Positions 45,141 to 64,000 of a stretch of 64,000 nucleotides of DNA are shown here, piece after piece. The stretch comes from Piedraia hortae CBS 480.64. Taxonomy: Eukaryota. The position numbers were made by a program, and so were the translations under genes. The number at the start of each line of letters is the position of its first letter. The first letter of the stretch is position 1. Under the pieces are notes generated by a model that made no database searches, had not been told where the DNA came from, and saw nothing but the letters and a program-made list of their open reading frames with translations. The stretch is taken from the NCBI GenBank assembly GCA_010093745.1, contig MU005958.1:434001-498000 (forward strand). The letters run 5' to 3'.

Positions 45141-47115
45141 ATGGCCAGGCCATCTGATTGGCTCGGACGCCGCAAATGCAGTTCCGTGCGCCGGCTGCAT
45201 CCTCACTTTGGTCATTCACACCCCAGGAGACCATCGCCCTACTCAATACGCAGTGGAGAGGATGCCGATGACGAGCGCTCCATTCTGTCCATGAGCTACA
45301 GCATGGAAGAGGACCTCCCCGCGCCGTCCTATCCCGGCGAGGACACCCGGCCAACTTCTGACAAGGAACTGCTGGGATTCTACGCCTACAGCTTCGCTGC
45401 CGAAGTGTTTGTCGTTTGTGGTCTGGGAGCTTTCATTCCAATGCTACTCGAAGACTTGGCCAGATCCCTGCCCTCAGCTGTGTTGGCCAAAGATCATTCT
45501 CAGCCTTGCAGAACCGTTGGTAACGATCTGTTAACAGCCTCCGGGATAGCCACTGTGGTGCCAGATAAAGATGCCCAATGCGTGTTTCGTCTAATGGGCA
45601 TTGAGATCAACACAGCCTCTTTTGCCATGTATACATTTTCCATTTCTGTCCTCGTTCAGACACTGGCCGTTGTGTCCGTGTCAGGAGCAGCTGATCATGG
45701 ACGGTCCCGAAAAGACCTTCTTGTAGCAACGGCCGTCGCAGGGTCGATAGCCACCATGCTTTTCCTCACAGTTGCACCCAATACTTACCTGCTCGCATCA
45801 CTCTGGGCCATCCTTAGCAATGCCTGCTTCGGCACCAGTTTTGTACTTTTCAACTCTTTCCTGCCTCTTCTAGCTCGGTGGTATCCTGTCCCTCAAAATG
45901 TAGCAACAGGAACTCCTGGGATACCGCAAATTTCCCTATCATGTGTTGATGAGGAGGAGGTAAGTCCACTTTTCTTGTCTTGCCCGGGTCAAGCTAAGTG
46001 CCATAGCACGATGTAGGTTATCCGGAATGCAATGCCCAATCGACTACACCTCTGCTTGGCTCCCCGGATATCCCACCGACATCAGCCGTTGAGGAAGTAT
46101 CCTCCACGATATCATCTCGCGGCGTGGGGATAGGCTATGTCGCCGCCATCATTGTGCAAATCCTATCAATATTAATTCTACAATCATCAGGAGCAACCAA
46201 TCTTGCGCTGAGACTCGTACTATTCTTCATTGGGCTTTGGTGGCTTACATTCACCTTGCCGGCAGCGTTATGGCTCCGACCACGACCCGGCCCTCCTCTG
46301 CGGCCAGAAAACGAAAAGCCACAGACATGCTTCCGCTATCTTTCGAACTCCTTGATAGGCACCCGACGAACAATTATGCAAGCTCGGCGGCTCAAAGACG
46401 TGCTGCTGTTCCTGTGCGCTTGGTTCATGATATCCGATGCTATTGCAACGGTATCTGGCACATCTATACTTTTTGCCAAAACCGCCCTTGGAATGGCCCC
46501 GTCTGCCCTGGCCATGATCAATGTAGTGGTCACGCTTTCGGGCATCGTGGGCGCAATGACATGGCCCATCACATCGAATATGATGCAGCTCAGGCCCAGT
46601 CAGACCATTCTCATTTGTATTTGTCTCTTTGAGGCTATTCCGCTGTATGGCCTGCTGGGCTATGTTCCTGCTGTGAAGAGACTCGGTTTTTTCGGTCTAC
46701 AACAGCAGTGGGAAATGTACCCCTTGGGCGCAGTGTATGGACTTGTGCTCGGTGGTCTGTCGAGTTATTGTCGAAGCCTTTATGGGGAGCTGATTCCAAA
46801 TGGAAGCGAAGCGGCCTTTTATGCACTTTATGCCATAACGGATAAAGGCAGTAGCATTTTGGGACCGATAATAGTGGATGCTATCACTGATGCTACGGGG
46901 GATATTCGACCGGTGAGTTTATGATGATACTTCGATATGTGAGCTAACATGTGTAGGCTTTCTGGTTCCTGGCCGTGCTTATTGGGCTGCCAATTCCCAT
47001 CATGTACTTGGTAGATATCGACCGGGGGAAGAGGGAAGCTTCATTGACAGCATCCGCTTTGATGGTGGAGGAAGTTCCCCAGCTCGAATGGGAGGACGAA
47101 GAGGCTGATCCCTAA
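45141..47115 (+). CDS. ATG22: Vacuolar amino-acid effluxer Atg22 (MFS)
   Basis: [50 protein letters not shown] and [18 protein letters not shown]. Introns 45960-46006 and 46913-46956 keep the frame to TAA at 47113-47115. Confidence 0.92.
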
Positions 47116-47153
47116 CGTGAAAGCTTCTACAGGAAAGTTTGCGTCATTACGAG

Positions 47154-48308
47154 CTACCGTTTTTTGGGTGCGCTGATGCTGACACTGTTATATTTGACAG
47201 TCAGTAGTCCTTCTTTTTCTCGAGTCTTCTTCTGCTGCACCGCTTTGATCCCGATGCGGTCAGTGACGGGGGCAGCGTTCAGTATGGCATCGAAGGCCTC
47301 ATCACCATCTCCGTCCAGGTCTGAGCCTGATTCCGCATCGGAGTCTTCTGGCAGAGGAAGTTCTTTGGCAGGCGGACGTTGGATCACCTTCGGGGTGCGA
47401 TCGCTGTATGCAGGTTCAGGATTTGCAAAGGGCTTAGAAGCCAGAACCTTCTGTCTGAGATATGCCATTTCCTCATCGTCGTCGGAAGGCGGTAGATCTC
47501 CAGGCTCGATATAGCCATCTGACTCTTCGTCTTCTTGGGTGGGTTGCTCGCCGGGCTTTGGGCCGCCCAGTTGTACACCACCCATGCCACTGTCGTCACT
47601 GTCATCATCCTCATCGTCCACCGGCATTCTTCGATTCAAATTTCCTCCTCTCCACGCATCATTGCCATTACCATTTGCCTCTCTCTCCTCTTTGTCAACT
47701 TCATATTCCCTCTCAATCTTCGCAAGCCACTGCTTTTCGGCTATTTTAACTTGTCCTTCGTCGTCACAAGCTGCGTATCGCTTCAAGACTGCCTCGTTGA
47801 TATCCAGGAATGCCTCCCCATACCCGAAGCCAGCAAGAATCTCCTCAGCCCATTCCTTGTGACCACAAATGACAAAACAGGCGGCCAAGGCCTCGACGCA
47901 ATTAAGCCGCCAGGGCCGACCGTAGTTCGTCGGGTTTGCAGCTATCAGGTATGGCAAGAGTCGAGGATTCGGCCCTCCGATGCGGTGAAAAGGAACTTCC
48001 TCGATTCGATTCCAGCTCGCCTCAACCACTGCACTGCCGTATTGTTCTAGAATGGGACGATCGGCGGGAGAAAGCAGGATCTTCGCCTTTGGACTGATGA
48101 CGATCCCGGCATGTTTCTGACCAACATGCAGTTCACGCATAAGGCCCTGGCGCATCAGACGCTTGCCAGAGCATTTTTTTGCGTCGCAATGGTTGAAGTC
48201 CCAGGCCGCTGCTTTGAAAGTGGGGACATTCTCGGAATTATCCGGCTTGGAATCAGTCCGATAACCATGTTTCTTGCCTTTGTTGGCGAAATTTTTTTTG
48301 TGTCGCAT
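47154..48308 (-). CDS. TSR3: 18S rRNA aminocarboxypropyltransferase Tsr3
   Basis: WDFNHCDAKKCSGKRL, RLLPYLIAANPTNYGRPWRLNCVEALAA, FGYGEAFLDIN and an acidic tail. Confidence 0.95.
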   Translation of the reverse strand: MRHKKNFANKGKKHGYRTDSKPDNSENVPTFKAAAWDFNHCDAKKCSGKRLMRQGLMRELHVGQKHAGIVISPKAKILLSPADRPILEQYGSAVVEASWNRIEEVPFHRIGGPNPRLLPYLIAANPTNYGRPWRLNCVEALAACFVICGHKEWAEEILAGFGYGEAFLDINEAVLKRYAACDDEGQVKIAEKQWLAKIEREYEVDKEEREANGNGNDAWRGGNLNRRMPVDDEDDDSDDSGMGGVQLGGPKPGEQPTQEDEESDGYIEPGDLPPSDDDEEMAYLRQKVLASKPFANPEPAYSDRTPKVIQRPPAKELPLPEDSDAESGSDLDGDGDEAFDAILNAAPVTDRIGIKAVQQKKTREKEGLLTVKYNSVSISAPKKR

Positions 48309-48526
48309 GATGTCGGATTGTCGCAGTTAACCGAACCCTTGACCGATTCCCCCGACCAGTAGAGACTGATGCAGTGGAGCGGCCCGAACCTTGTGCCAGG
48401 ACCTGTGCAGAATGACGTCTTTGACGGGCCGGTCCGTCTCAATAACAACCACCTGGCACGATTGAGCGCTATTTTGCTGGCAGCGGAGCCAGAGGCCGGC
48501 CACCGGCGCTACCCTCAGACGAAATA

Positions 48527-50344
48527 ATGGAAGCTGCGGCAGCTCGCCATGCGGCGCGAGACCGATTTGCATATCCCATTGAACCCCCTCAGACGCCCTT
48601 ACAACGACTTATCAAGAACGCCTGCTCCCCCGAGAACTACGAGCCCAACCTGGCACTGGCCCTTGAGATTGCCGAATTGATTAATGAAAAAAAGGGCAGC
48701 GCCCCGCGCGAGGCGGCCATGGCCATCATCAGTTACATCAATCACCGGAACCCCAACATCAGCATGTTGGCGCTGAGCCTACTGGACATTTGCGTTAAAA
48801 ACTGCGGCTATCCATTCCATCTGCAGATCAGTACAAAGGAATTTCTAAACGAGCTTGTACGGCGGTTCCCGGAGCGGCCTCCACTGCGCACGACGCGAGT
48901 ACAGAACCGCATTCTCGAGCTCATCGGGGAGTGGCGATGGACGATTTGCGAGACGAGCAAGTACAAGGAGGATCTTGGTTATATCAGGGACATGCACCGG
49001 CTGCTGGGTATGAAGGGCTACGTCTTCCCCGAGGTGCGAAAGGAGGATGCTGCCGTTCTGAACCCGAGTGATAACTTGCGAAGTGCTGAAGAGATGGAAG
49101 CGGAAGAGCGGGAGGCGCAGTCGGCCAAACTGCAGGAGCTCATCCGCAGAGGCACGCCACAGGATCTTCAAGAAGCGAACCGCTTGATGAAGGTCATGGC
49201 GGGCTACGATAACAGACGCAAAACGGACTACCGCGCCAAAGCGGCCGAGGAGGTGGGGAAAGTGCAGCAAAAGGCTCGGCTGCTGGAGGAAATGCTGCAG
49301 ACGCAGTCAGAGCTCAAGGAGGGAGATGTGGCAGAAGAACTGGCAGCTGCCCTGGCTTCGGCCCATCCCAAGATCCAGAAAATGTGCGAAGAGGAAAGTG
49401 ATGACCGCGAGGCGGTGGCAAAGCTGTTGGAGATTAACGACAGTATCCATCGCACAGTTGAACGCTATCGTCTTGTCAAGAAGGGTGATGTTGGCGCTGC
49501 GAATTCTATTCCTAAAGGCACTCTTGGCGTATCAGGGGCTGGGGTCTCAGCGGGACCGGGCCAAGAGCTTTCTTTGATTGATTTGGGCGGCGAAGACACA
49601 CCGGCCCCGCAGCCGACACCTGGAGGGAGTACCTTGGCAAATGATTTGCTTGGATTGAGCATGGACGATAGCCAGCCATCAGGAAACAGCGGATCTCATA
49701 GCTTAAATGATACTTCGGCCCGTAACGCTTCAATAATGGCGCAGTTCAACAGCAAGCCTGCAACAGGGCTGTCTCCAACGAAGCTGCCTGCAGCTCCGTG
49801 GTCGTCAGGATCTACCTTGGACCTACTGGACATTGGAACAGGAAGTGCTGCTTTACAAGCTACTCCACAGGTTGCTTCGCAGTCTGCAACACCTACAAAC
49901 AACGATGACGAATGGACGTTTTCCTCGTCTCTTCCCGATCAGCCCGCCACGATTGAAGTAACGCCCAGCACCAGCCACATCAGGATCGAATTTAATGTCT
50001 CAAGAACGTCTGATACCACCTTACAAATTCTATCGAGCATCAGTAACAAAACGGACCAGAACATCAAAGAATTGGCTTTGCAGTTGGCCGTCACCAAGGT
50101 GGGTAGTTTGATGAACCATGGCTGCATTCAACTAACGTAATAGGGCTATACCCTTCAGCTCCAGCCACAGTCTTCACTGACCCTGGCTCCGAGACAGGTC
50201 AAGGGAATCACTCAAACGATCCAGGTGCAGAATGTGGAGAGGGGAACGGGCACAAAGGTCAAGATGAGGTGGAAAGTGGGGTACAATCTAGGCGGTATGC
50301 CGATGAACGAGCAGGGGGAAGTTGTGGGCATGGGAGTGATGTAG
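48527..50344 (+). CDS. GGA: GGA clathrin adaptor (VHS-GAT-GAE)
   Basis: VHS motif LLDICVKNCGYPFHLQISTKEFLNELVRRF, GAT motif AKLQELIRRGTP.DL.EAN, clathrin box LIDL. Intron 50099-50143, then the GAE end (KVKMRWKVGY). Confidence 0.92.
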
Positions 50345-50802
50345 TCCCTACCCGTATATGTACATGTTATTAACAGCTGCAGTGGGCATTGGTCTTGGCG
50401 TTCTGCACGGGGGCTGCGGATACACCGTATCGGCAATGCAGCGCCGCTCGGGTGCGGTTTAGTTCCTTTGATGGGGTCATTGGGCCACGATGCATCGTTT
50501 AGGTCTGCGGCAAATAATTCTGCTGTGAACCCATCCGCCCACGCACCCGATGATGGCCGGTGGACGACGCACGTCCCCTCCGCGATCAGGCTCGGCGGAA
50601 ATATCCGTCAGTACCACACTATGAATGGCGGGGAACGGGAGCGGGCTCGTGCTCACCGTTGTCAGATAGAAAAAGGTATTCGTTACCGTTGGAAAGTCTT
50701 CTTTCGCCTTCTACCAACAACATCACATTCTGTCAAACGTTTTTTTTTTTCAACGGTGCAACACGTCAAATTTATAAAGACAACAAACCCACGGGCTTAG
50801 GC

Positions 50803-51387
50803 ATGCGCACCACACAGCGTTTTTCAGCAGACGGGGATGAGCAGACGCAGATATTCGTTAAAGACGTTACTGGGGATGGTGGGTATTCGTGGAAATGGCC
50901 GTGTCAGGCTGACATGTCATAAGCATTCTCTCTTTCCATTCCCACCGCGACAACCGTGGAGACGTTTGTTAACATGGTAGCGCTACGTAGCCAAGTGTCC
51001 CCCGACGACCTTCGCGTCGTATATGCCGGGCGTCAGCTGCAAGTATGCAGAGACGACAGTTCGCCGGCGCCGCCGACTGCCGCGGCCAGACCGACGCTCG
51101 CTGATCATGGCATCACGCACGAATCGACCATCTACCTGGCAGGCAGCATCCGCGGCGGCGCTCAGGGGAAAAAGGTGCGTTGCACCTATAGCGACTGCCG
51201 CGAATTCGCTCAGCGCATCGTTGGCGACTGCAGCTTCTGCACCGGCCACTTTTGCAGCAGACACCGCATGCTGGAAAATCACAGTTGCCCCGGTCTGGAA
51301 GACTGCAAGAATGAGGAGAAGCAGCGAAACAAGGAAAAGCTGGAACGCGAGCGGACAAAGCCCGTCAGGGGTCTGGGCACTGGCTAG
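50803..51387 (+). CDS. Ubiquitin-like plus AN1 zinc-finger protein (Tmc1-like)
   Basis: QIFVKDVTG, LRVVYAGRQL, TLADHGITHESTIYL..IRGG, then CTYSDC..CSFCTGHFCSRHRMLENHSC. Intron 50879-50923. Confidence 0.88.
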
Positions 51388-51872
51388 CCTGTAGGCTGAT
51401 AGTTATCGTTCATCTGTGTCTGTGTCTTTGGGAAGACGTCATGACCCCACATAACCTTGCCGGGATGTTCCCGCAAATGATACATCCAAATTTGCACAGA
51501 TGGTTACCGAGTTGGCCATCAAAATCTTGAAACAGTTTGAACCCCCAAGGGTGCAGTCATTGTGTAAACAGAGCTGCTGAATAGATCATGTGCTCGACGT
51601 CCCGTGCTTGGCTATCATGATAAGAACTCAATCTAGAGTGCAATTAAATTTCCTAGAGCACTGTCCACAAAACATACCGCGAGTAAAATTCAAGATAGTG
51701 ACCATGAGCAGTGATCCATCCGTCAAAATAGACTTCCTAGTCCAGTCATTGTCCCATGCGCACCACGCACTTTGAATTAAAACTCTCCCGCGCACAATTC
51801 CACATCATAAAAGAACACTCCATGCCACAAAACCCTACATTGAAGCTAATCATACACCCCCTCCCTCCCAAC

Positions 51873-54800
51873 TCAAACAATCGAACTTCCATCCCCCAAA
51901 TCCCTCACCACCCCCTCCCTGCACGTTCCCTCCTCCCCATTCCTCAACGCAAACGTATCCTCATAAACCCCCATCGCAAGACTCCTCACAAATGGCCTAA
52001 CCACAACCCTCGCAAACTCCCCGCGCGGCAGCGCCCTGATATCATTCCCATCGAGTCTCAACCCCTCGAGTCTCAACCCCCCTCTCGTCCCAACCTTCAA
52101 ACCGTCCTCAACCCCCAGAACATCATCCCCCTCCGCCCCCTCTTCCGCCCCCGCAAGCACCCCCGCAATTTGTTCCGCCAACGGTCCATCCCCCTCGGTA
52201 GAGCGATAAACCGCATCAGTCGAATCCGCAATAAAAAGCCACTGTCTCAGTAAAAACTCATCCGGAGCGAGAGAAACCAACTGATCGAGCAGCTTACAAG
52301 CTTGCAAAATCCCATTATTCGTCCAGCCTGATCCCCCTGAGGGGAGAACTGCGGTAAGCGCGTCGTCGAGGAGGTCGTCGATCAACGGCCACAAGGCCGA
52401 GAGGTTTGGAGGGGAGAAGGAGAGGGTTGCTGCGCGAGATAGGATTAGGACTTCTGCTTTGATGGTGGAGGAAGGAAAGGAGGATTCTGTTGCTGAAGAT
52501 AAATCGGCGATTTTTTCGAGGAGGGGTTTTAGGTGTGAGAGGTGGGTATCTTTTGGGGAGGAAAGGAGGATTAGGGTGATCCGGCGGAGGGTTAGTTGTG
52601 TTTTGCGGTCGGAGTCGAGACGCGTTGCGTTGGCGTTTACGCCAAATAATGAGCCGGCGGTTGAGGGCGGGGTGAGGCGGGAAAGTTGTTCAGTGAGGCG
52701 GTCGGGGTCGCGGAACATCCATTGGTGGATTATGGGTAGCCAGGGGGTTAGGGGGGAGGAGAAGATTCGGGCGTCGTGGATTGCGTCGTGGACTTCGCGC
52801 TTCCAGGACTTGGAGGTGGGTGATTTTCTTGAGATTTCGTGGAGGAGGGTTAAGATTTCTGGGGTTAGGTTGGTGGGGAAGGATTTGGAGTGGATTAGAG
52901 GCGTTATGATGCTGTTGGTTATGTTGTTCGTTGCAGTTATGATGCGTTCGGGCGTTTCGACGATTGTGTCAAGTTCGCGGACCGCGTCGGTTAGGACGGA
53001 GATGAGGTTGCTTGCTTTGGTGCGCTCGTCGTGGTCGGGGGTTGGGATGCCGGGTACGGTGGTTAGGCTGGCTGCTAGGAGACGTTGGAATATGTCTATG
53101 AGTTCGCGTCGCATTCGCCTTTGTTCGCTAAAGTTTGTATGGAGGGATTTTTGGGATAAGCATTGGACGAGGGATAGGAGAGGGGGTAGTGCTTGGCGAT
53201 ATGGCAAAGGGTTGGCGAGCACGTCCCTTAAAAAGGCGATGCAGTCCGTCCAGATCTCGTCCAGTGCGTCGTCTTCCAGAGAGTTGACGTACTGCAAGAG
53301 GAAAACAGCAATGTCGGCCGCTGTCATGTCCACACTCATCTGTCGTCCACTCTGTGTGTCGATTCGGCCGCAGAGTGCGTTTAGTATTGTAGGAACCACG
53401 TTCTTTGGACGGGATCCTTGCATGACATGCAAAAGATCCAACGCAGTCGAGACTTTATTGGAAAGCAGAGAAATCACCACCTCCAAGCTCTCAAGCGGCT
53501 CGACCATGAACATTTGCTCTAGCAAGTGACGCGCTTTGTGTCGAAGACGGAGTGAGTAATACGTCGTTGTTGCGCTGGAGCCATGATCATGCTCGTTGGA
53601 CCAGCCCCAGATCTTGAGGCATGTTTGTATGGAATCATGAAAGGCCAGCACAACCGTCAATCGACTGTTGGCCTGTGCCGTCTTGCTTGGTGGTCCTTCT
53701 GATTTGAAAACGCCCGATGTCATGGTCCCAAAGAGCCCTCGGTTAGGGACAGGAGATTGGGTGGCTTCTTCCGCAATCTGCTCCTGTGCAAGACAATCGT
53801 GTGCCCGTGCCAGGACCATCTCCAAGGCTTCCAAAAGGCCCAGACAGACTGCATCGGGACTCCACTCATGCACATCTTCTTGCTCTGTCATCCTCACCAG
53901 CTCAGAAAACACTGCATCCAGCTCGCCGCAGAGACATTCTACCAGCGGCAGCAGGCTCGCGAATATCGCATTGGAAAATGTTGGCAGCATGCTGGACAGA
54001 AACCTCAGCCAGTGTGCCATGTGTCGACGGCCTGATTTTGAGGTGAAACCCATTCGGAGACACTTTAGCAGCTGCGGAGGTGGCGGTGCTTGTGTGGTCA
54101 TCAAACTGGGTGTGTTGCTGGCCTTTTTTTCTACCAGCCGGAGGTTGATAGCATCAGGTATCATGTCTAAGATGAGGCCTTGGAGGTCATCCTCGTCATT
54201 GGCAACACAGCCCAGCAACCGATCCATCAGGACAGAGTCCAGTGCCATTTCCCGGAACTGGTTAGACACCGGGCTTGTCATTAAAATGCGAAGAACGTTT
54301 AAGCACCGACGGTCAAGTTCCGTTGAAGTCTGTCGCGACACCATCTGCGAGCACACTTGAGCGATATACCTCGCTCCTTCTGATTCTGACTTGGCATTGC
54401 TGAGGCTGTTCCATGTCCAATCGCCTCCGTCACGGAGGAGACCCTCAAGCTGTCCGAGAACATAGACCAAACCCCTCTGTTTATCCCGCACAACTCGAAG
54501 ACGAGTCTTTGGATCTTCTACTCTCTCCTCATCTTCTTTCAGGATAATCTCTAGCCGTTCAAAGATAATTTCAAAAACATACCGAAGCGTTGGGAGAGCT
54601 GCAAGCCAGTCTCTTGCCGTCTCAGCAGCAACGCTTGGTGTTGCGCCCAATACGTCCACAATCCACGACAATGGCTCTGCTAGGATTTGCCTTCTTCGCT
54701 CAAATTTTGCAGCATCAGCCATTGCCGTGGCTGCACTGCTTCGTCGGGTCAACGTGGCTCCGCCGTTCTTAGTGGCTACCACTTGCGCGGGCATTGAATG

Positions 54801-57043
54801 GTTCCAGAGGATTGCAAACCGTCTGACTGCTTCATCGTCAAGAGGCGATTTTTCTGTTTGGCATTTCGTCCCAGATCGCATCTGAGTGATCAGCAACGCT
54901 TGCAACTTGTTATCATCGCCTGCTAGCTTGTTCAGCTGCCACAGAGCTCTCACTGCTTCAACATGATATTTGGGTCGAGAAGGTGAAAGATGTGCCCACA
55001 GCTGCGCAGTCAGCAATGGCTGTAGCTGGAAGAGTTCGTTGGCGGTGATGCGACCAGCTGAGTTGTATTCTGTCGTCAAGGATAATATTGCGTTCAGAAC
55101 TGAAAAGGAAACTGGACATTCAGTTATCCACCCCTGAATTTCCATTGGCAATGTTGGAATGGGACCAACATCGCGCGTGATGGAGAGGAGATTGTCCATG
55201 ACTGGCACGAGTTCGCAAAAAGTTGAGCTCTGCTTATCCTTGATAGTACGCCGGACTAAGCTCGTGACCTGGTGAAGAAGAGTCGCAGCCAGAGTGGAAC
55301 GGCCCATGGGCAACGAAACTTTGCCAGCTGATTGGGGCAGTTCCCGATAGAACCTTGCAATGATTGAGCTATTGTCTTCTTCAACTTCTTCCGATCCATC
55401 ACCCTTGAGCGCTCTCTCAGGAATTAGCTGGGACAGTTTGTCTGCGATTTCCAAAGCCAAGGTGGTCAATATACCTGTAGGCGTTGACTGTCGGTTGAGC
55501 AGATCAAAGATTAGAGAAAGCGTGAGGGGGGCGTGAATGAGGACCATCTCTTCGTCTGACACATTAAACGTCCCTAGAGCCCAATTGACTAGACGCAGGT
55601 TTTTTCCAGACCGTTCCTCAAAGGCTTTTCGAACGTAATTGCAAAAATTTGTCCAAACAAGACCGGCTTCCACTCCATCAAAAAACAGCGATGCACTTCG
55701 CATAACTTCCTTCACTTCCGAAGCGGATGCAGTCTGGCCGAACGTATACACACTTTCCAATGCTGGTGGGAATACTTCAGTGAGGATCGATCCGCCAATC
55801 TCCCAGCGATCCATCAACGATAGACAAATCCGAAGCGGACGAGCAACTTGGGCCGCATTATTCGGATGTTCATCTAGCAGACTGAGCATCACACGCCGCA
55901 GGGATCCTTCGCCATATTTCCGAAAGTACTCCCGCTGAGGTGCATCTTCCTGACTCCCAGATTCCTCTTTGCTCGGTCCCACAAACCAGGACCAAAGACG
56001 TCTGTTCAAACTCATGTCACGCCTCAGCAAAACTTGGACGGTTGCAGCTACTAATCGGTCGAGGTCTTCTTGATCAATCTTCTCCCGCAAGACCGGAGAG
56101 TTTAGCGGTAGATGTGTGACTAGCAGGTTCAGGAATTCTCTTTGGGCCAAGACCTGGTCGTCTGACAGTCCGGCAACAAATGCTCTGACAAGCAGCCCAG
56201 GTTCTGGACATATAACGACATAAGCCTCGTCCGAAAGGCTGTCTGTTGTGAAGTTTGGCAGACGACGTGACATGTAATTCAGCATCCCTGGCCTTCTTGA
56301 CGGACTGGTGATGACACATAGGAAGAGACATTGCCAAAAGTACCCATTTCGGGGCTCGGCAGGATCTGGCTGGGCAAATTCGTCTTCCAGTTTCTGCAAA
56401 ATCGCAAATGCACGATCAAAGTCCTCGCCCGATTCCTCTTCAATAGCAGGGCTAAGGCCTAAAATGAGTGATTTCAAAGCCGGTCGTAATGTTTTTGCCG
56501 GTAACCGAACAATGTGGTGTTCAAAAAGGGCATAGAGGGCAGGTCTGACGGAGAGCGAGGCAAATGAGAGCACGGAGGCCAATCCGGGAAGGTAATCAGT
56601 CAGGTGCAAGGACAAGTGATGGGCGCCAAAGGTCGAGAAGATATAAGAGTACACTTCGAGAGCTTTTTGATGGACACCAGAGGGCAGAGCTGGGTTCATG
56701 CATTGTGCAAGTTTGAAGGCTATGCTTCTACTGTGCGGTAGTATGGGAGAGTCTTTGGGATGCGTTTGTATCGCTTTAAGAAGGCGACCCAAAAAGGCGA
56801 TATAGTCGGCCCATTCTTCGGGAGATGTTTCCCAGGTAGCAAGAGCTTTTTCGATTACAGTTGCATATCTGCGGAGGCCCTTATCTGCCTTGTATAGTCC
56901 TATATACCATGAGCTACTGTCCACTACTGATACCCCACGCGCATACCGTCCTCTGCCGCTCGTCGCGCTACGCGAGGCGCAGGCGATGAACGCCCCGAGC
57001 TTGCAGGCGACTGGGAGCGATTACCAGCGATATCCAAGTTCAT
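51873..57043 (-). CDS. DOP1: Dopey/Dop1 (DopA) endosome-Golgi trafficking protein
   Basis: EWADYIAFLGRLLKA, LAQCMNPALPSGVHQKALEVY and LRRDMSLNRRLWSWF. First exon 57043-56947 (MNLDIAG..SPASSGRSSP) is joined by intron 56946-56900. Confidence 0.93.
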
Positions 57044-57162
57044 CTTCGTACATTCTAGCTGTCCTACGTGCCAATCGCAAGTTTCATATTCTGGTTGAAC
57101 GTGGCTTGGTGCCTCAGGCCGCAACGCGCACCTCCACCTCCACGGACGGAGTGAAGGTGAAG

Positions 57163-58767
57163 ATGTCTAGAGAATCTACGCCGCCGCCTTTACCTCGGAG
57201 ACCTGTAAAGGATACAGAACCTCCCAAGCCAGCTTCTCTCCGCCTCTCAAAGTCGTCTTCGAGACCTCAGCTGCTATCTCCAGCCACTACAGCGCTGTCC
57301 CTGACTGATGTATTAAGCGGGGAAAGCACTCCAGCGAGTCGGAGTGTGTCCAGAGAACAATCGCTTGATCACTTTCATCGTTCAAGCATTGACAGCGATG
57401 TTAGTAGGAGTATATCAGGAGAATTCCATGATGATTCGTTGGATTTACAAACAGACGACTCCATCAGTCTTCAATTTCAACACGAGTTTGATGCACTAGA
57501 AGGACTAGATGAAGAAGACTTGATCCGCAAATGGGGAGCCAAGCTTAAACACTTTTTCATCTTGTCAGCCTCGGGCAAGCCCATCTATAGCCGTCATGGC
57601 GACGACCAGCTCATCAGCAACTACATTGGCATAGCCCAAACACTGATATCCTTTTACCAAGACGCCAATGACAATCTTAAGTCGTTTACAGCCGGCGACA
57701 CCCGGTTCGTCATGCTGTCAGAAGGATACTTGAACCTCGTAGCCATAAGCCGATTGGGTGAAAGCGAAGGTCAACTACGCTCCCAGCTGGAAAGCCTCTA
57801 CATGCAGATCTTATCCGCACTGACTTTGCCGTCCATGGAAAAAATGTTCAAGCTTCGCCCGTCTACTGATCTTCGTCGGCCACTCGCGGGAACAGACGTG
57901 CTGCTGGACAGTCTGGCAGACGGCTTCACACGAGGCTCACCTTCAACTCTCTTATCCGCACTAGAATGCCTGCGTCTTCATAAAAGCCATCGAGAGGTGA
58001 TTGACGAAACATTTCTCAGAGTTCGTTCTCCAAATTTGCTCTACGGGTTGATCGTAGCAGCTGGTCGTCTGGTTAGCGTAGTTCGGCCTAAGAAGCATTC
58101 TCTACACCCGGGCGACCTCCACTTGATTTTCAATATGCTCTTTGAAGCGAGCAACATCCGCGCTGGTGGTGGGGAGAACTGGATTCCTCTTTCTCTGCCG
58201 GGTTTCCACAAGAACGGTTACCTCTACATGTACGTTAGTTTCGTCACCGAGGAGGTAGATGACGCCTTAGCCGTCGTTCTTATCAGCGCGAACAGGGAAG
58301 GCTTCTATGAGCTGCGTGAGATGCGAGACAGTCTACTCGAACAACTCGAGCAAAACGAAGGCATGTCCCATCTTAAAGCAGCCATGAGCAAAGGCCGGGC
58401 TTCATGTTCTCAAATGGTTCCCGGCTCTGTCCTGAAGCATTTCCTCTACAAGTCCCGCGCTCACGTGCAGTTTACCATGCCTTCATTTGAGCCTTTATTC
58501 GGAGACGCTGTGTTACGAAGGAAGCTGCTAAGCTGGTATGGCAGTTTGCATGAAAGCATCCATTCACGCGCGGCACGGTTAAAAGTGCAACATCGGTCAA
58601 CACCGTACATGTCGGGCTTGGCATGGGAAACAGCGCAGTTTGAACTCTATTGCGTGGCAGGTCCCAATGCGTCGAGGAACGACCTCTTGCACGCTGCCAA
58701 CCGGGTTGTGAAGCAAATGAAACGAGAGGAGGAAAAAGTTTTCATAATCGGTGGAGCAGTCTTCTAA
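57163..58767 (+). CDS. MON1: Vacuolar fusion protein Mon1 (Rab7 GEF subunit)
   Basis: KLKHFFILSASGKPIYSRHG, YMQILSALT, HSLHPGDLHLIFN, WIPLSLPGF and EEKVFIIGGAVF. Confidence 0.93.
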   Translation: MSRESTPPPLPRRPVKDTEPPKPASLRLSKSSSRPQLLSPATTALSLTDVLSGESTPASRSVSREQSLDHFHRSSIDSDVSRSISGEFHDDSLDLQTDDSISLQFQHEFDALEGLDEEDLIRKWGAKLKHFFILSASGKPIYSRHGDDQLISNYIGIAQTLISFYQDANDNLKSFTAGDTRFVMLSEGYLNLVAISRLGESEGQLRSQLESLYMQILSALTLPSMEKMFKLRPSTDLRRPLAGTDVLLDSLADGFTRGSPSTLLSALECLRLHKSHREVIDETFLRVRSPNLLYGLIVAAGRLVSVVRPKKHSLHPGDLHLIFNMLFEASNIRAGGGENWIPLSLPGFHKNGYLYMYVSFVTEEVDDALAVVLISANREGFYELREMRDSLLEQLEQNEGMSHLKAAMSKGRASCSQMVPGSVLKHFLYKSRAHVQFTMPSFEPLFGDAVLRRKLLSWYGSLHESIHSRAARLKVQHRSTPYMSGLAWETAQFELYCVAGPNASRNDLLHAANRVVKQMKREEEKVFIIGGAVF

Positions 58768-61064
58768 TCATGTCTAACCAGCCATGTGCGAGCTATGGTC
58801 TGAAATCGCATCACATCATTTTCCAGCCTCTTCACACGAGCATCCATCACTGCTCGCCAAGCCCTTTGCAGAACTGTTGTTGCTTCGACGAGACGGTGTT
58901 GTGTCCGCACCACTGCGGCGCAGGAATGTGCCAGTCGACAGAGAGCGAGTCTCCTGGTTATCTGCCTCCTTGCCAGCATTAGCCGATAAGCTCTTGAAAT
59001 CTTGACCGCGGATTTGTGCGTTTTGGCCAGATGTAACAACCTCGACGCAAGGAACGCGAGGTTGGCAATAACGGCATGTCGCGAAGGAACAAATCCGTCT
59101 TTCGCAGTCAACTGCGAGACGAAAGTCTTGCTGCATCCAATCGCAGCCAGCTTGTCCGCCAGTCCGGCAGGTTGTCCGGAAATAAACTCTCCGAACCCAT
59201 CCAAAATAGCCTCATAAACCTCCCTCCCACATTCCGCAAACATCTCCGTCGTCAGAGCAGAACCATAGTACCCTTCCGCCCACTCCATCAACTTCCCCTC
59301 CCCAGCAAGTCCCTCCCCAACCAACTTATTCAATCCAAACGGACACACGATCCTCCACAACAAACTGAGCGTCCGTTCCCTATGTCCATCCACCAAATCT
59401 TCCGCCTGTACCCCAGAAACGTCAACCCCCTTCTCCCTCAACCCATCCAACGCCCTTTGGGTATTACCCAACCTCTCCCTCCTAGTCCTACACTGCCCCC
59501 CCACCCCTTTTCCACCAAACAAAACAACCCCCAACCGCCCCAAAAGCACCCCATCCCGAACCCCAACTGCCAAATCTTTTACTCCCCAATCCTCATCCTC
59601 ATCCTGCACAAACCCAACCTCAAAACCCAAAAATCCCAACCTTCGAACCAAATCCCCCGTCGACGGAATCACAACCTTCCCCAACCTAACAATCATCTCC
59701 CTCGAAGCCTTAACCCCCCCCTCACACCTAAAAACCAACCCCCCCTTAATCCCACCCCGATCCAAAACCCAAATAACCATCAACGCACGAAGGACACAAA
59801 CCCACCACTCCCCTTCGACAAAAAACCTCTTCAAGAAAGCCCTCACCCTGACCGAGGGCGGAATGGTGCGGCCAACGACGACTTCAGCCGCGGCGCGGAG
59901 CCATCCCTCTTCATACACTTCCAGGAGGGAGAGGAATGCTTCGCGAATCCCGAGATCGGTGGAGAGATGGACCGGCTTTGCTGGCGCGAGGGTCCCATAC
60001 CGCAAGCTTTGTTCGAGCCGGGTGTGCAGGGTTACTGTTGTGGGGGTGTGGTAGATTTTAAGAAGAGGTTCCCGCCGGGGGGGAGGGGGGGGTTGTGCGG
60101 TGGGGGTGAGGAGGGTGTTGATTATTTCACGCAGGGAGACTTCTTGGTGGGAGAGCCAGTGGGGCAAGGGGGTGTAGAGGCTTGGGTGGGGGATGTGGGG
60201 TAGGGGTTGGTAAGACTCCTTTGGGGGATGGAGGGCTGCTGGTTTTGGGTGGTCGTTTTGGGTTGTGATTGTCATGATCAGTTCCGCAGGGGGGGAGAAG
60301 GTCTCTTTCTTCCCACCGTTTTGGCTGGGGATCGTAGTTGTGGACTTGCAGGTGGGTTTGGGATTTTGCGGACTTTGGGGGGTGCGGGTTTGGGAGGGCT
60401 TCGCCGTGACTGATTGCTTGAGAGGACGCGGGAACGCCGATGTATCGGCTGGTGATACCACTTTTGCGGATACAGATGGCTTTTTCATTTTTCGCTTCGT
60501 GTCTGGGAGGAGGTTATCTTTCTCACCGCCCTGGCCTGGTATGTCCACTTTGTGGTTTGTATGGGTGGGTTTCGGGGTTATTGAACCCAGTGGGACTCGT
60601 TTGTGAGGGGGCTTCGCCGCGCCTTCTTGTTTTGAAGAACGATTATTGGGCCGCTTCGCGCTGGGTAACATGAATGTATCGTCTAGTAATCCCGCTTTTG
60701 TGAATGATTTCTTCCTGTTCCGGTTCGCGTCTGGGAGAAGATTCTCTTTTCCACCGCCCTGGCCTGGGATGTCCACTGTGCAATTGGTGTTGTTGGGTTT
60801 GGGAGTTATGGTACCCAGTGGTGTGCGTCTTTGGGGTGTCGGCTTCACCGCGTCTGCTTTTTTTGGAGACCGCTTGTTAGGACGCTTCGCAATGGGGAAC
60901 ATCCATGTATCGTCTAGGGTTTTGTCTTTTGCGCCGGGATGGATCGTCAACATAGCTGTTGTGGAGTCTGGCGGGATGTAAATTGTTCGTCTTCGCCGGT
61001 CGACAGGGGACATGTTCATATTGGGTTTCAGGGGTGAAAAGGCGAGATGCAGATTTGTCGCCAT
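58764..61064 (-). CDS. ASPM/Sha1-like calmodulin-binding spindle protein (CH domain plus IQ motifs)
   Basis: RRRTIYIPPD, TIHPG, DLGIREAFL, WLRAAAEVVVGR, CH motif VKDLAVGVRDGVLLGRL..EDLVDGHRERTLSLLW and IQ-like LQRAWR. Start uncertain; the frame is open to 61355. Confidence 0.8.
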   Translation of the reverse strand: MATNLHLAFSPLKPNMNMSPVDRRRRTIYIPPDSTTAMLTIHPGAKDKTLDDTWMFPIAKRPNKRSPKKADAVKPTPQRRTPLGTITPKPNNTNCTVDIPGQGGGKENLLPDANRNRKKSFTKAGLLDDTFMLPSAKRPNNRSSKQEGAAKPPHKRVPLGSITPKPTHTNHKVDIPGQGGEKDNLLPDTKRKMKKPSVSAKVVSPADTSAFPRPLKQSVTAKPSQTRTPQSPQNPKPTCKSTTTIPSQNGGKKETFSPPAELIMTITTQNDHPKPAALHPPKESYQPLPHIPHPSLYTPLPHWLSHQEVSLREIINTLLTPTAQPPPPPRREPLLKIYHTPTTVTLHTRLEQSLRYGTLAPAKPVHLSTDLGIREAFLSLLEVYEEGWLRAAAEVVVGRTIPPSVRVRAFLKRFFVEGEWWVCVLRALMVIWVLDRGGIKGGLVFRCEGGVKASREMIVRLGKVVIPSTGDLVRRLGFLGFEVGFVQDEDEDWGVKDLAVGVRDGVLLGRLGVVLFGGKGVGGQCRTRRERLGNTQRALDGLREKGVDVSGVQAEDLVDGHRERTLSLLWRIVCPFGLNKLVGEGLAGEGKLMEWAEGYYGSALTTEMFAECGREVYEAILDGFGEFISGQPAGLADKLAAIGCSKTFVSQLTAKDGFVPSRHAVIANLAFLASRLLHLAKTHKSAVKISRAYRLMLARRQITRRLALCRLAHSCAAVVRTQHRLVEATTVLQRAWRAVMDARVKRLENDVMRFQTIARTWLVRHD
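60481..60917 (-). repeat. Intragenic tandem duplication, 231-bp offset, in the ASPM-like gene
   Basis: Copy 1: LDDTWMFPIAKRPNKRS..RRTPLGTITPKP..VDIPGQGGGKENLLPD. Copy 2: LDDTFMLPSAKRPNNRS..KRVPLGSITPKP..VDIPGQGGEKDNLLPD. Confidence 0.92.
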
Positions 61065-62249
61065 TGTGTGGATTTTCGATAGAGGTGTTTGCTCAATTGA
61101 TGGTTTGGCGCGTGGATGAGTATTTGGGTCGGTCGGTTGGCGTGGCAACGGCGTAGGTAGCGGGTTAAGGTTTGGAGTTTCACACACAATACACACCATG
61201 TGACAGCAACTTTCACTACTCAGGTTTTTCAGGTCTGAACTTTGGTCCATTGTTATTTGCCTCTGGACCAGCCGCGCTAGATATCGACAAGTGCTTTTCG
61301 CGTAGCTGATCATCGCAACTTTTACTCCAAACCCTGCATCGCATCTTGTGTGCATAAAGCTCGATCATACAACCACTCAATATCGTCATATAGCCGGACT
61401 TGGACTCTGCGAACACTGGACAGATTGAATAAACCTTTATAGTGGAATGGCAGCGCCTCCAATATGGTCTTCACGCAAGCGTAAACACTGGATATGGCGA
61501 ACCGAAATTTCGTGCCATATCGATCCGCCGAATCCAGGGTTAGAGTGTAGCTGCATTGATAGAACCAAAAAGTGGGCTGGAGATCAGCTCTGATGAGTAT
61601 GGTGAAAGGGGTGCGTTGGATGTAAGTTCGCATATGCACTGAGAATCAATTTCGAGTCTGTGATGCCTGTTACATTCTTTTGGAAAATTGGGGGTTGGGC
61701 AACAGATGGCAGTCCATCTGTGTGCCTAGTCAACCAATCCATCGATCAACTAATGAGCAGAATACCCACTTCAATATCGGCGTAAAGTTACGGAAATGCC
61801 CGCTCAATAATGCATACATACTACTGAACCATGAGTTTCTTTCTCCAATATCGTCGCAAAGTTACAGAAAGGCTCATACAATAGTATATTGAGTCATAGT
61901 GTAGCAACTACTTTCTCCATTATTGACTCAAAGTCACATAGATACCTATTCAATAGTGCGCGAGCCGGCATGCCCCTTTTTATTCCGTGAGAGCAAATGA
62001 ATTGCCTCCGTATGTCAGCGTCGAGCGCTCTTCACTAACTCATTCCGAGGAAACTTTCGAGAATCTCTACTGAGACGACGAGTTTTCCCCGAGCAGGACT
62101 GTACGTTAACCTTCCCTGCTCATCAAAAAGCTCTGAGTAGTCACTTAATATCTCGCCGACATTGCTGCAGAAAATCAGAAAAGGCATGGTAGAAATGTAT
62201 TGGTGTAGTTCATGTCATAAGATGACGATAGTTATCCTCCGACTACTCA

Positions 62250-62674
62250 TCACTGCCAAACCACCCCCACCCCAGCCTTCTCCCCCTCTCCCCCCGAAAA
62301 CTCATCAAACCTCGCATCCCTATCCCACACATTCCCCAACTCTGATTCCTCCCTCCTTCGACGCAGCAACACGCTTAAAATATCGAATCCGATGCATCGG
62401 GATCTACTTCTCCTTATCTTTATCCCTAACCCACGCATCTGCATGAAGCTCCTTCATCCCCTCAAACCTCTCCGCGTATCCAATCACATAGTCCGCAACG
62501 TCCAGGTTCGGGTCCCAGTAGAGTCTATTCAGAATTTTCGGTCCGGGTGTTAATTTTCCTTTGGGGCCTTGAGATTGGAGTTGGGAGGGGGGGGGGTTAT
62601 CCTGCGTGAGTTCTTTGCCTTGGAGTTGGTGTGGCGGTGTAGTTCGACACGCGGGTTGGTGTGCTCGGTGGCAT
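62250..62674 (-). pseudogene. MJ1316 (DUF504/LENG9-type) RNA cyclic-end recognition domain pseudogene
   Basis: A frame absent from the ORF track reads KGKLTPGPKILNRLYWDPNLDVADYVIGYAERFEGMKE..WVRDKDKEK*IPMHRIRYFKR. After a frameshift it continues VWDRDARFDEFSG. TAG at 62406-62404; the ATG at 62674 is out of frame. Confidence 0.8.
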
Positions 62675-64000
62675 TGTTGTGTTTAAATTTAGGACAATGG
62701 GATAGTGCGAGAGTATGCTGATGGGTGCGCCTTGCCATTGTTTGAGCTGAAAAATAATCGTGGTGTTTGTTTAAGTTGTTGAGTTATGTTGGGTGTGGTT
62801 GGGATTTTTATGGAGGGATGCTGTGTGACTGACTTGTCGAGGACTACTGTTGCGAGGTGTCTTTTTCCATGGCAAAGGGGGGGGGGGTTTCTGTGTATCA
62901 CCAGACCATCTTGTCGTTTTTGACCCTAGCGGACCCAATTGCATCGTCACACCACTTCCATATCGCAATGCCACATTAGCATCCAAGATAAATCATCTTA
63001 TGACCCATGAGCTTTCAGTCGATCTGTTCACTGATCAACACCAAGCTCACAAGATCTTTCTATGCGAATGAGTCATGATGAGAATATTCCGCTGTCTCAC
63101 TTACGAATTTCACACACATATTAACAATATTGCTTGGATTGATTCTTGGGTTTGGTTCAAATCGTTGTGGATGAACATAATTCAGTCAATATTGGCATGA
63201 TAAGTATCTCCAGGCGATTGGTAAATTTGAAGGACTCAACCATCCTAGGAAGATAGAATTGTGCGTACTATGATACCTGCCTACTTTTATGTGCTGCAAC
63301 GCAATAGTGCACGGTCATACGTTATCGGACGCCGGCGTGGCACCAAATCTGTTATGGAAATCTGATTGGCTTCAATCTTCTATGAGAACACTATTCTACT
63401 ATACCACCATGCATCGATTAGCTTCCATCGCAAACGTCTGAAAAGCTTGCTTCGGTGGGAAAAACTATCTTTCCCTGCTTCATCCAAGACAATATCACAA
63501 TCGCCGAGCAGCAGATCCGTCACGGCTTGTGACATCTCCAGTGTTCATTCCCCCTCAATCCGAAAAAGACTCCTGTGATGCGCAGTTCGGATGAAAAGGC
63601 ATGAATACACCCATGTTGCCCAGTTCCTAAGGCGGGAATGGAAACTGAACGGAGAGGACCATGTACCGTATACCTCATGTTAAAGGTGATTAGGTTTCAC
63701 AGACCTACTTATCCCGTCATCTGACATCAAGTTCTATGTACTTGGTATATATCTTTTTCTTTTTTCTTAAAAAGAAAAAAAAGCCGAAAGATGAACAGCC
63801 GTGGCAGTCTTACCCCCGTTGCCAGAGTGCCGTGGCAATTTCAGAGGTATAGATGTACAGAGATGGGTTCGAAGATATCAAAGTTTGAGCTGTAAAGGAA
63901 ATCTGCTCAGCTCGTTTTTACTTCTTGGCAGAGGGAACTCCGCCCATGCTGCAGATTTTGTAATTACAACCCTTTCCTCGTCGCGAGGCCTTCCTATCCT

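What the first reader, a model, noticed from the sequence alone, without database searches (positions are those of the whole stretch)
51750..53250. Second bipolar skew island of the same polarity in the 3' end of DOP1
Seen: the + strand is C/A-rich over 51750-52260 (line 51901-51960: 33 C, 4 G). It switches near 52300-52350 and is G/T-rich to about 53220 (line 52861-52920: 28 G, 2 C), then returns to balanced composition for the rest of the 5-kb CDS. The Dop1 sequence is Thr/Pro/Ser/Leu-rich before the switch and Gly/Val/Glu/Arg-rich after it. A 15-bp tandem duplication (GLRLE-GLRLD, about 52052-52081) lies within the island. The C/A arm extends past the stop codon into non-coding DNA, which favours mutation over selection on the protein.
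Basis: partly seen in the sequence, partly recalled or inferred. Interest (0 to 1): 0.72.

Follow-up and report, generated by a model that had tools for sequence, protein, structure and literature searches.

The report
Mirror-image mutation patch in fungal gene
A 1.5-kilobase patch at the end of an ordinary fungal gene has been rewritten outward from one point, each DNA strand gaining G and T, enough to speed up change in the protein; similar fungal skews are known, but their cause is not.

Summary
The island is real. DOP1 third codon positions are 48% C/A for 1,167 codons, then 85%, then 15% after a switch at about 52,325; the skew continues about 200 nt past the stop. It is one of 62 same-polarity islands in 1.05 Mb of this genome; the outward-running strand is about G52/T24/C12/A12 whether coding or template, and the skew ends by about 1.2 kb. 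Local strand-asymmetric mutation is well supported; the trigger is not shown. I favour recurrent break- or nick-primed repair synthesis (0.4) over 3'-end transcription (0.27) or origin firing (0.18). Closest known: the fungal 5'-C/3'-G gene skew (averaged; AT skew flat) and bacterial GRINS (duplicated; this is single-copy). A CGCG excess at centres replicated in held-out DNA; a convergent-neighbour excess did not. The scan noted such islands before, in this and other fungal genomes.

The parts
51873..56699 (-). DOP1 (DopA/Dopey) main coding stretch, 1608 aa from the first ATG; the true 5' end lies further upstream, beyond an intron
   Evidence: ORF; Pfam Dopey_N, TPR_DOP1_M, DOP1_C; spliced minus-strand joint 56898-56946 in run X2
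52326..53198 (+). Arm 1: G/T-rich on +, C/A-rich on the DOP1 coding strand (about codons 1168-1458)
   Evidence: third positions 85% C/A; outer edge 53180-53246; four-fold sites C100 A44 T15 G11
52260..52400 (.). Weakly skewed centre; switch at about 52325; nearest CGCG at 52359
   Evidence: 100-nt bins 52201-52400 are weakly skewed; change point 52322-52328; CGCG list
51873..52325 (+). Arm 2, coding part: C/A-rich on +, G/T-rich on the DOP1 coding strand (last 150 codons)
   Evidence: third positions 15% C/A; four-fold sites G46 T18 C7 A4
51665..51872 (+). Arm 2, non-coding extension past the DOP1 stop codon
   Evidence: 141 of 208 bases C/A, p 3e-7; the next 277 bases are balanced
52047..52080 (.). 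15-bp tandem repeat, 2.3 copies (GLRLE-GLRLD); the orthologues shown have non-repeated sequence of similar length here
   Evidence: alignment rows printed (13 of 30 orthologues shown)
50803..51387 (+). Convergent neighbour: ubiquitin-like plus AN1 zinc-finger gene, with an intron; its stop lies 278 nt from the island edge (context, not part of the island)
   Evidence: Pfam zf-AN1; spliced joint 50877-50923; start codon read from the sequence

Best explanation
The island is the accumulated footprint of a locus-fixed, strand-asymmetric hypermutation process. It starts in a zone of about 100-200 bp and acts outward on both sides for about 0.5-1 kb. It turns A to G and C to T (and favours G over T) on whichever strand runs 5'-to-3' away from the centre, until silent sites saturate and conserved residues begin to change. 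SHOWN: the geometry, the mirror equilibrium, independence from coding strand, finite reach, locus specificity and excess protein divergence. INFERRED: that the centre is a site of recurrent DNA breaks or nicks, such as an intragenic recombination or repair hotspot, and that the changes arise on the newly made repair strand. That strand runs outward from the break on both sides, is copied without effective mismatch repair and is transiently displaced as single-stranded DNA. The stated confidence is for this trigger; confidence in local strand-asymmetric mutation as such is about 0.9.
For: Mirror equilibrium at four-fold sites on the outward strand: A.11 C.12 G.52 T.26 where it is the coding strand (1,963 sites), A.12 C.13 G.52 T.22 where it is the template (4,050 sites). 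This points to a DNA-level process symmetric about a point. In 45 islands the skew is 0.29-0.37 within 100 nt of the centre, peaks at 0.60 at 200-300 nt, is 0.16 at 800-1000 nt and about 0 beyond 1,250 nt. A symmetric centre with asymmetric kilobase flanks is the shape reported for human break hotspots (PMC7615360, section 4 and passages). Locus-specific: one of two tandem sulfatase paralogues (240 of 360 residues identical) carries an island and the other is unskewed; two-fold differences are A>G 21, C>T 21, G>A 1, T>C 3. The protein shift in DOP1 lies outside the range of 30 orthologues in both arms. Yeast repair synthesis is 100-1,000 times more substitution-prone, escapes mismatch repair and displaces the new strand (PMC12891019, passages). 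Displaced nascent single strands are a mutation target in break-induced replication (PMC9262586, passages). The same correlated G+T / C+A skew marks gene-conversion tracts in bacteria (GRINS, PMC8256042 parts 2-4). In Zymoseptoria, of the same order, 1,435 of 2,578 hotspots are exonic and few are shared between species (PMC5844332, passages). A Spo11-type gene is present.
Against: No break, recombination or mutation-rate data exist here; the trigger is inferred from shape alone. The best-documented hotspot footprint has the opposite polarity: in humans the resected single strand left of the break on the forward strand loses C and A, so that route is excluded and only nascent-strand errors or damage fit. 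I found no paper passage giving an A>G plus C>T nascent-strand spectrum for repair synthesis. Centres are biased to gene 3' ends (23 of 34 in the last third) and short-gene arms often stop near gene ends, which a transcription-linked process explains more directly. Genes without a called island keep a weak skew of the same sign. No polymorphism was seen in the one other run, so present-day activity is not shown.
Confidence: 0.4

Rival explanations
1. Transcription-linked mutation near gene 3' ends: an extreme, patchy form of the fungal 5'-C/3'-G gene skew. RNA polymerase pausing, head-on meeting with read-through from a convergent neighbour, or sense and antisense R-loops expose or repair one strand on each side of a fixed point.
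For: Direction matches McLean and Tirosh (PMC3315797 parts 1-3). 23 of 34 island centres in long ORFs lie in the last third and 26 of 34 within 700 nt of the stop. In the discovery set 15 of 16 island genes had a convergent 3' neighbour within 1 kb, against 66 of 131 other genes (p 0.0009); 10 of those 15 neighbours have clear Pfam hits, 1 a weak hit, 4 none. DOP1 and the neighbouring ASPM-like island gene are both convergent. An RNA contig runs from the AN1 gene into the DOP1 3' end (49294-52131), a weak hint only.
Against: The convergent excess did not repeat in held-out contig C3: 2 of 5 against 15 of 30 (p 1.0); pooled 17 of 21 against 81 of 161 (p 0.01). 8 of 34 centres lie 999-3,042 nt from the stop. 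The two arms are equally strong whether the outward strand is coding or template, which needs antisense effects as strong as sense ones. The first 1,167 DOP1 codons show no skew although they are transcribed.
Confidence: 0.27
2. Replication origins: each centre is a fixed initiation site, possibly helicases pushed to gene ends by transcription, and the first kilobase of synthesis is error-prone or leaves the lagging template exposed.
For: Polarity is that of an origin, with the outward strand G/T-rich (recalled textbook rule, not from a call). Human origins carry mutation footprints of about 1-2 kb ascribed to polymerase delta use (PMC9645720, passages). Yeast origins lie mostly near gene 3' ends and Mcm2-7 can be pushed up to 2 kb (PMC4991242, passages). 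Density is one island per 17 kb (62 in 1,051,829 bases).
Against: No long-range leading/lagging skew beyond 1,250 nt, at four-fold sites or in non-coding DNA. Spacing is clustered (CV 1.4 in C2), with neighbours 0.9-1.3 kb apart and a 143-kb gap at this threshold. Most centres lie inside coding sequence (33 of 45), whereas origins are mostly intergenic. No AT-rich core.
Confidence: 0.18
3. Selection, on the Dop1 protein or on a long mRNA fold-back between the C/A arm and the G/U arm.
For: The arms are complementary in composition, and a 1,200-nt piece folds more stably (-427 kcal/mol) than one control piece of DOP1 (-365).
Against: That stability is fully explained by composition: z 0.01 against 30 arm-wise shuffles. 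Only short, imperfect inverted repeats were found, and no Rfam match. The skew is strongest at silent sites, crosses the stop codon and breaks conserved residues. It hits unrelated genes.
Confidence: 0.03
4. Damage to the resected single strands at break hotspots, as in the human germ line.
For: Same scale and central symmetry, and the same class of change (loss of C and A on one strand).
Against: It predicts G/T on the left and C/A on the right of the + strand; the opposite is seen (62 forward islands; 19 reverse junctions, and 11 of the 12 examined lie within 1.2 kb of a forward centre).
Confidence: 0.02
5. Sequencing or assembly artefact, or an inserted foreign or mobile piece.
For: None beyond the abrupt change in composition.
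Against: The frame stays open and matches DOP1_C across the island. Contigs of two runs cover it with no other letters or indels listed; one of them (X1) may be the source of this DNA, X2 is another study. It is single-copy in the genome.
Confidence: 0.01

Closest known systems
Opposite GC skews at the 5' and 3' ends of fungal genes (McLean and Tirosh 2011, PMC3315797; parts 1-3 of 4 read, supplement not seen)
   Same: Coding strand C-rich upstream and G-rich at the 3' end; reaches four-fold sites and the 3' UTR; shifts amino-acid use; cause unknown.
   Different: That paper describes gene averages with gradual ramps, flat AT skew, and similar size at degenerate and non-degenerate positions. 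Here there is a bounded island with a step, AT skew flips with GC skew, third positions dominate, most of the gene is unskewed, and protein divergence is raised.
[quoted passage not shown] 2021, PMC8256042; parts 2-4 of 5 read)
   Same: Kilobase scale; correlated GC and TA skews that change abruptly; strongest at third positions; Gly/Val/Trp up in G/T parts, Pro/Thr up in C/A parts; mechanism unknown.
   Different: GRINS are by definition duplicated regions, mostly bacterial. This island is single-copy in a fungal housekeeping gene and has one fixed polarity around one centre.
Mutation footprint of human meiotic break hotspots (Hinch et al. 2023, PMC7615360; section 4 and passages read)
   Same: Symmetric centre of about 100 bp each side, strand-asymmetric flanks of 1-2 kb with off-centre peaks, loss of C and A on one strand.
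   Different: Opposite polarity; seen there in rare variants, here as saturated base composition.
Origin-centred mutation footprint and skew jumps (Murat et al. 2022, PMC9645720; passages read)
   Same: Centre-anchored local mutagenesis of about 1-2 kb that builds nucleotide skews.

Membership tests
Fungal 5'-C/3'-G gene skew (McLean and Tirosh) | Coding strand C-biased upstream and G-biased at the 3' end | tested here: met
Fungal 5'-C/3'-G gene skew (McLean and Tirosh) | Affects four-fold sites and extends into the 3' UTR | tested here: met
Fungal 5'-C/3'-G gene skew (McLean and Tirosh) | AT skew largely constant along the gene | tested here: not met
   TA skew flips with GC skew: about -0.2 to +0.2 around 45 centres; four-fold A.24/T.12 against A.11/T.24
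Fungal 5'-C/3'-G gene skew (McLean and Tirosh) | C bias from the promoter through most of the gene, with gradual ramps | tested here: not met
   first 1,167 codons 48% C/A, then a step within about 66 nt
Fungal 5'-C/3'-G gene skew (McLean and Tirosh) | Similar size at non-degenerate and degenerate positions | tested here: not met
   DOP1 arms: third position 0.5-0.8 against mostly 0.0-0.5 at first and second
GRINS | Longer than 500 bp with mean absolute GC and TA skews above 0.15, correlated | tested here: met
   1.55 kb; arm counts give GC skew -0.60/+0.51 and TA skew -0.19/+0.19 (from counts)
GRINS | Duplicated: more than 80% identity to another region | tested here: not met
   only the self match in the own genome; the search skips common words, so short repeats are not excluded
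GRINS | Skew strongest at third positions with matching amino-acid shifts | tested here: met
Meiotic break-hotspot footprint (human type) | Weakly asymmetric centre, asymmetric flanks within 1-2 kb | tested here: met
   the dip at the centre may partly reflect error in placing centres
Meiotic break-hotspot footprint (human type) | Loss of C and A on the forward strand to the left of the centre | tested here: not met
   left side of + strand is C/A-rich
Meiotic break-hotspot footprint (human type) | Mapped breaks or recombination at the centre | not testable with these tools
   no break or crossover data
Replication origin skew jump | Outward strand G/T-rich on both sides | tested here: met
   the origin rule itself is recalled
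Replication origin skew jump | Skew persists over many kilobases towards termination zones | tested here: not met
   about zero beyond 1,250 nt
Replication origin skew jump | Mapped initiation at the centre | not testable with these tools
   no replication data

The most novel reading that the evidence does not exclude
Filamentous fungi carry discrete, intragenic break-repair hypermutation hotspots with CGCG-rich centres that can be read from a single genome. They use the same chemistry as bacterial GRINS but act on single-copy genes, raise protein divergence several-fold in about 15% of long genes here, and account for much of the unexplained fungal 5'-C/3'-G gene skew.
Probability: 0.25. Interest if true: 0.8.

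Novelty: new variant of a known kind. Interest (0 to 1): 0.5.

Why it matters
About 7% of the surveyed DNA and 34 of 223 long ORFs carry such islands, and in DOP1 the island raises change at conserved residues about five-fold. That would bias codon-usage, dN/dS and phylogenetic analyses of these genes. It also turns an old, averaged and unexplained fungal skew into a list of point-like sites that break, origin and R-loop maps can test directly. If the centres are repair hotspots or origins, they could be mapped from sequence alone. The averaged pattern is already in print and the trigger is unproven, which limits the score.

Tried and rejected
Loss of repair genes as the cause: not supported by presence searches in the own genome: 6 MutS loci, 3 MutL, 2 uracil glycosylase family, 4 Y-family polymerase matches, one with a stop inside, RNase H2, 2 cytosine methyltransferase loci. 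Function was not tested. A single-context deaminase or polymerase-eta signature: not seen; the bias acts in all 14 neighbour contexts scored, C loss is strongest before A or T, and A loss is weaker after T. A fixed centre motif: CCTCCGCG (7 of 45 discovery centres) had 0 hits within 120 nt of 17 held-out centres, so it is dropped; only the CGCG excess held. A general palindrome excess was small (mean z 0.66). Direct substitution spectrum: sulfatase paralogues are saturated at four-fold sites; the other repeats compared gave no polarised signal. Relatives' DNA: the metagenome scan gave 3 loci at 35-36% identity; L063 shows no island, L062 and L064 were dropped because my frame picking failed on their interrupted frames. 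Polymorphism: no other letters in runs X1 and X2, uninformative; the run search listed no holder on record as RNA, although X2 proved to hold spliced contigs. mRNA fold-back, Rfam and repeat status: negative. Literature: searches for a description of bounded bipolar skew islands in fungi returned 1, 0 and 1 papers, none on this subject by title and abstract start; one search returned GRINS papers only. The library lacks most subscription journals, so absence from print is not established.

Full report
OBSERVATION. The composition claims are exact: 33 C and 4 G at 51901-51960, 28 G and 2 C at 52861-52920, and a balanced remainder of the CDS. The host ORF 51873-56699 (-) is DOP1. It is transcribed and spliced in run X2, which shows a minus-strand intron at 56898-56946 and covers the island without listed differences (one study besides the possible source run). 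On third codon positions the gene has three states: 48% C/A for 1,167 codons, 85% to codon 1458, 15% to the stop. The switch is at 52322-52328 and the outer edge at 53180-53246. The second arm continues to about 51665, some 208 nt past the stop (141 of 208 C/A, p 3e-7), and the next 277 nt are balanced. The 15-bp repeat is at 52047-52080. The nearest DOP1 relatives are Teratosphaeriaceae and other Mycosphaerellales at 43-51% identity; the genome G000 has 16.9 Mb in 132 contigs.

MUTATION, NOT SELECTION. I aligned DOP1 with 30 of the 120 listed homologues. At columns at least 90% conserved in the others, this protein differs at 11 of 229 outside the island, 21 of 102 in the C/A arm and 17 of 55 in the G/T arm (p 3e-8 for both arms together). 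At the 80% threshold the other proteins differ at 6-9% in the arm and outside segments alike, while this one differs at 11% outside, 24% and 39% in the arms. One outside segment just before the island (residues 1001-1159) is raised at that threshold (16 of 84) but not at 90% (3 of 54). Replacements are mirrored: in the C/A arm 30 go towards C/A-rich codons and 17 away (p 0.08 alone), in the G/T arm 22 go towards G/T and 5 away (p 0.002); outside 48 and 42; the arms differ at p 0.0002. The amino-acid shift of both arms lies outside the range of all 30 orthologues, so this island is lineage-specific at least in strength. The arms do not form a selected RNA fold (z 0.01 against 30 shuffles). The island is single-copy.

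A CLASS OF SITES. I read 1,051,829 bases of the genome (662 kb of C2 including the window, 200 kb of C1, 190 kb of C3; about 6% of the genome). A fixed rule (both 400-nt arms with keto skew of at least 0.2) gave 35, 10 and 17 C/A-to-G/T islands and 10, 2 and 7 reverse junctions; three block shuffles of C2 gave none at this threshold. 11 of the 12 reverse junctions examined lie within 1.2 kb of a forward centre. Median arm length is 530 nt (10-90%: 329-1,022) and islands cover 7.3% of the DNA; the 400-nt rule biases these lengths. DOP1 shares the top score among 112 long C2 ORFs. On the strand that runs 5'-to-3' away from the centre, four-fold sites are G52 T26 C12 A11 where that strand is coding and G52 T22 C13 A12 where it is template. 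The skew peaks 200-400 nt out and is gone beyond about 1,250 nt; four-fold GC rises from about 0.60 to 0.65. One of two tandem sulfatase paralogues has an island and the other has none; its four-fold sites are G in 76 and T in 30 of 127 regardless of the paralogue's base, which shows saturation, and two-fold differences are A>G 21, C>T 21, G>A 1, T>C 3 (direction assumes the unskewed copy is nearer the ancestor).

WHERE THE CENTRES LIE. Gene calls are my own ORF-based ones and miss short or intron-rich genes. 33 of 45 centres lie in called ORFs. 34 of 223 long ORFs carry one; 23 of 34 are in the last third, 26 within 700 nt of the stop and 8 at 999-3,042 nt. Host genes are unrelated, mostly intact housekeeping genes. 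A convergent 3' neighbour within 1 kb was found for 15 of 16 island genes against 66 of 131 others in C2 and C1 (p 0.0009), but for only 2 of 5 against 15 of 30 in held-out C3; pooled p 0.01. I treat this as unconfirmed. No fixed motif marks centres. The tetramer CGCG is in excess within 120 nt of centres: 65 against 37 in synonymous shuffles in the discovery set, and 22 against 14 (p 0.015) in held-out C3, where it is the top-ranked tetramer; background genes have 1,230 against 1,414. DOP1 has 12 CGCG in the 1.55-kb island and 6 in the other 3.5 kb. This may mark a binding or methylation site, or may be a by-product of context-dependent change acting on both strands at the centre: GGGA and CGGA are also up and GCCA and GGCA down. 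I cannot separate the two.

MECHANISM. Shown: a process anchored at a point, mirror-symmetric, blind to coding direction, of finite reach, converting A to G and C to T on the outward strand. Two geometries fit (inference): the outward strand is newly made with uncorrected errors, or it is displaced and damaged while single-stranded. Damage on resected ends, the human hotspot route, gives the opposite polarity and is excluded. Break- or nick-primed repair synthesis fits both geometries at once, since the new strand runs outward on both sides, escapes mismatch repair and is extruded as single strand (yeast). It also fits the finite length, the locus specificity, the link of the same skew to gene conversion in GRINS and the exonic, fast-moving hotspots of Zymoseptoria. 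I give it 0.4. A 3'-end transcription process explains the position bias best but not the equal strength of both arms or the unskewed 3.5 kb of DOP1 (0.27). Origins have the right polarity and a precedent for a local footprint, but there is no long-range skew and spacing is clustered with a 143-kb gap (0.18). Mismatch-repair, uracil-glycosylase, RNase H2, Y-polymerase, Spo11-type and methyltransferase genes are present, so simple gene loss is not indicated. About 0.09 is left for mechanisms I have not thought of.

WHAT IS KNOWN. The direction matches the fungal gene skew of McLean and Tirosh (parts 1-3 of 4 read), but three of its described features are not met: flat AT skew, gradual gene-long ramps, and equal size at all codon positions. 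Genes without a called island keep a weak skew of the same sign, so islands do not replace that pattern entirely. The base signature matches GRINS, but the defining duplication is absent. So it works like a GRINS-type skew patch placed like the fungal gene skew, and is a full member of neither. My searches found no paper on bounded bipolar islands in fungi; the library is incomplete, and the supplements of these papers were not seen. Earlier notes of this scan report the same islands elsewhere in this genome and in other fungal genomes; they gave me the two papers and the 3'-end lead and are not independent evidence. PMC9645720, PMC4991242, PMC5844332, PMC12891019 and PMC9262586 were seen as passages only.

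VERDICT. Real, strong and mutational; a new, bounded variant of a known but unexplained fungal skew, with a measured effect on the protein and testable point-like centres. Trigger unproven. Interest 0.5.

Noticed in passing
window 59180-61180: The strongest island of the window lies in the ASPM-like gene (58764-61364, -); its centre is 1,160 nt from the stop and its downstream arm ends about 416 nt before the stop. The gene also has an internal repeat of about 250 bp at 75% identity (window 60440-60917).
   Followed up: partly
window 62236-62896: A short, strong island in DNA with no called ORF; RNA contigs of X2 do not cover it, which is no evidence on expression.
   Followed up: no
window 56898-56946: Spliced minus-strand intron upstream of the first ATG used here, so the DOP1 N-terminus is longer than 1608 aa suggests; Dopey_N is matched only from profile position 62. 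DOP1 and MON1 (56986-58767, +) start head to head with very little space.
   Followed up: partly
window 58764-58767: The MON1 and ASPM-like reading frames overlap by 4 nt at their stop codons.
   Followed up: no
window 45957-50923: The four plus-strand introns seen are only 44-47 nt long, short for a filamentous fungus (comparison recalled).
   Followed up: no
G000:C2 228294-232541 (L040): Tandem sulfatase paralogues, one with an island and one without: a natural internal control.
   Followed up: yes
G000:C2 and C1 island genes: 10 of 27 island genes are followed by more than 1.5 kb without a called ORF, against 16 of 154 other genes. This could be missed, fast-evolving or decayed genes beside islands.
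   Followed up: no
G000:C2 72501-74032 and 86752-88280: A 1.5-kb inverted duplicate at 98.5% identity with older copies near 154-157 kb; other repeats compared show balanced transitions with no obvious one-way C-to-T excess.
   Followed up: partly
G000:C11 308357-309487: A cytosine methyltransferase domain in a 2,037-aa open frame, the size of a DNMT5-type CG methyltransferase (label recalled, not tested); may bear on the CGCG excess.
   Followed up: no
G000:C2 290149-432327: A 143-kb stretch with no island at the threshold used, while other regions have one every few kb.
   Followed up: no
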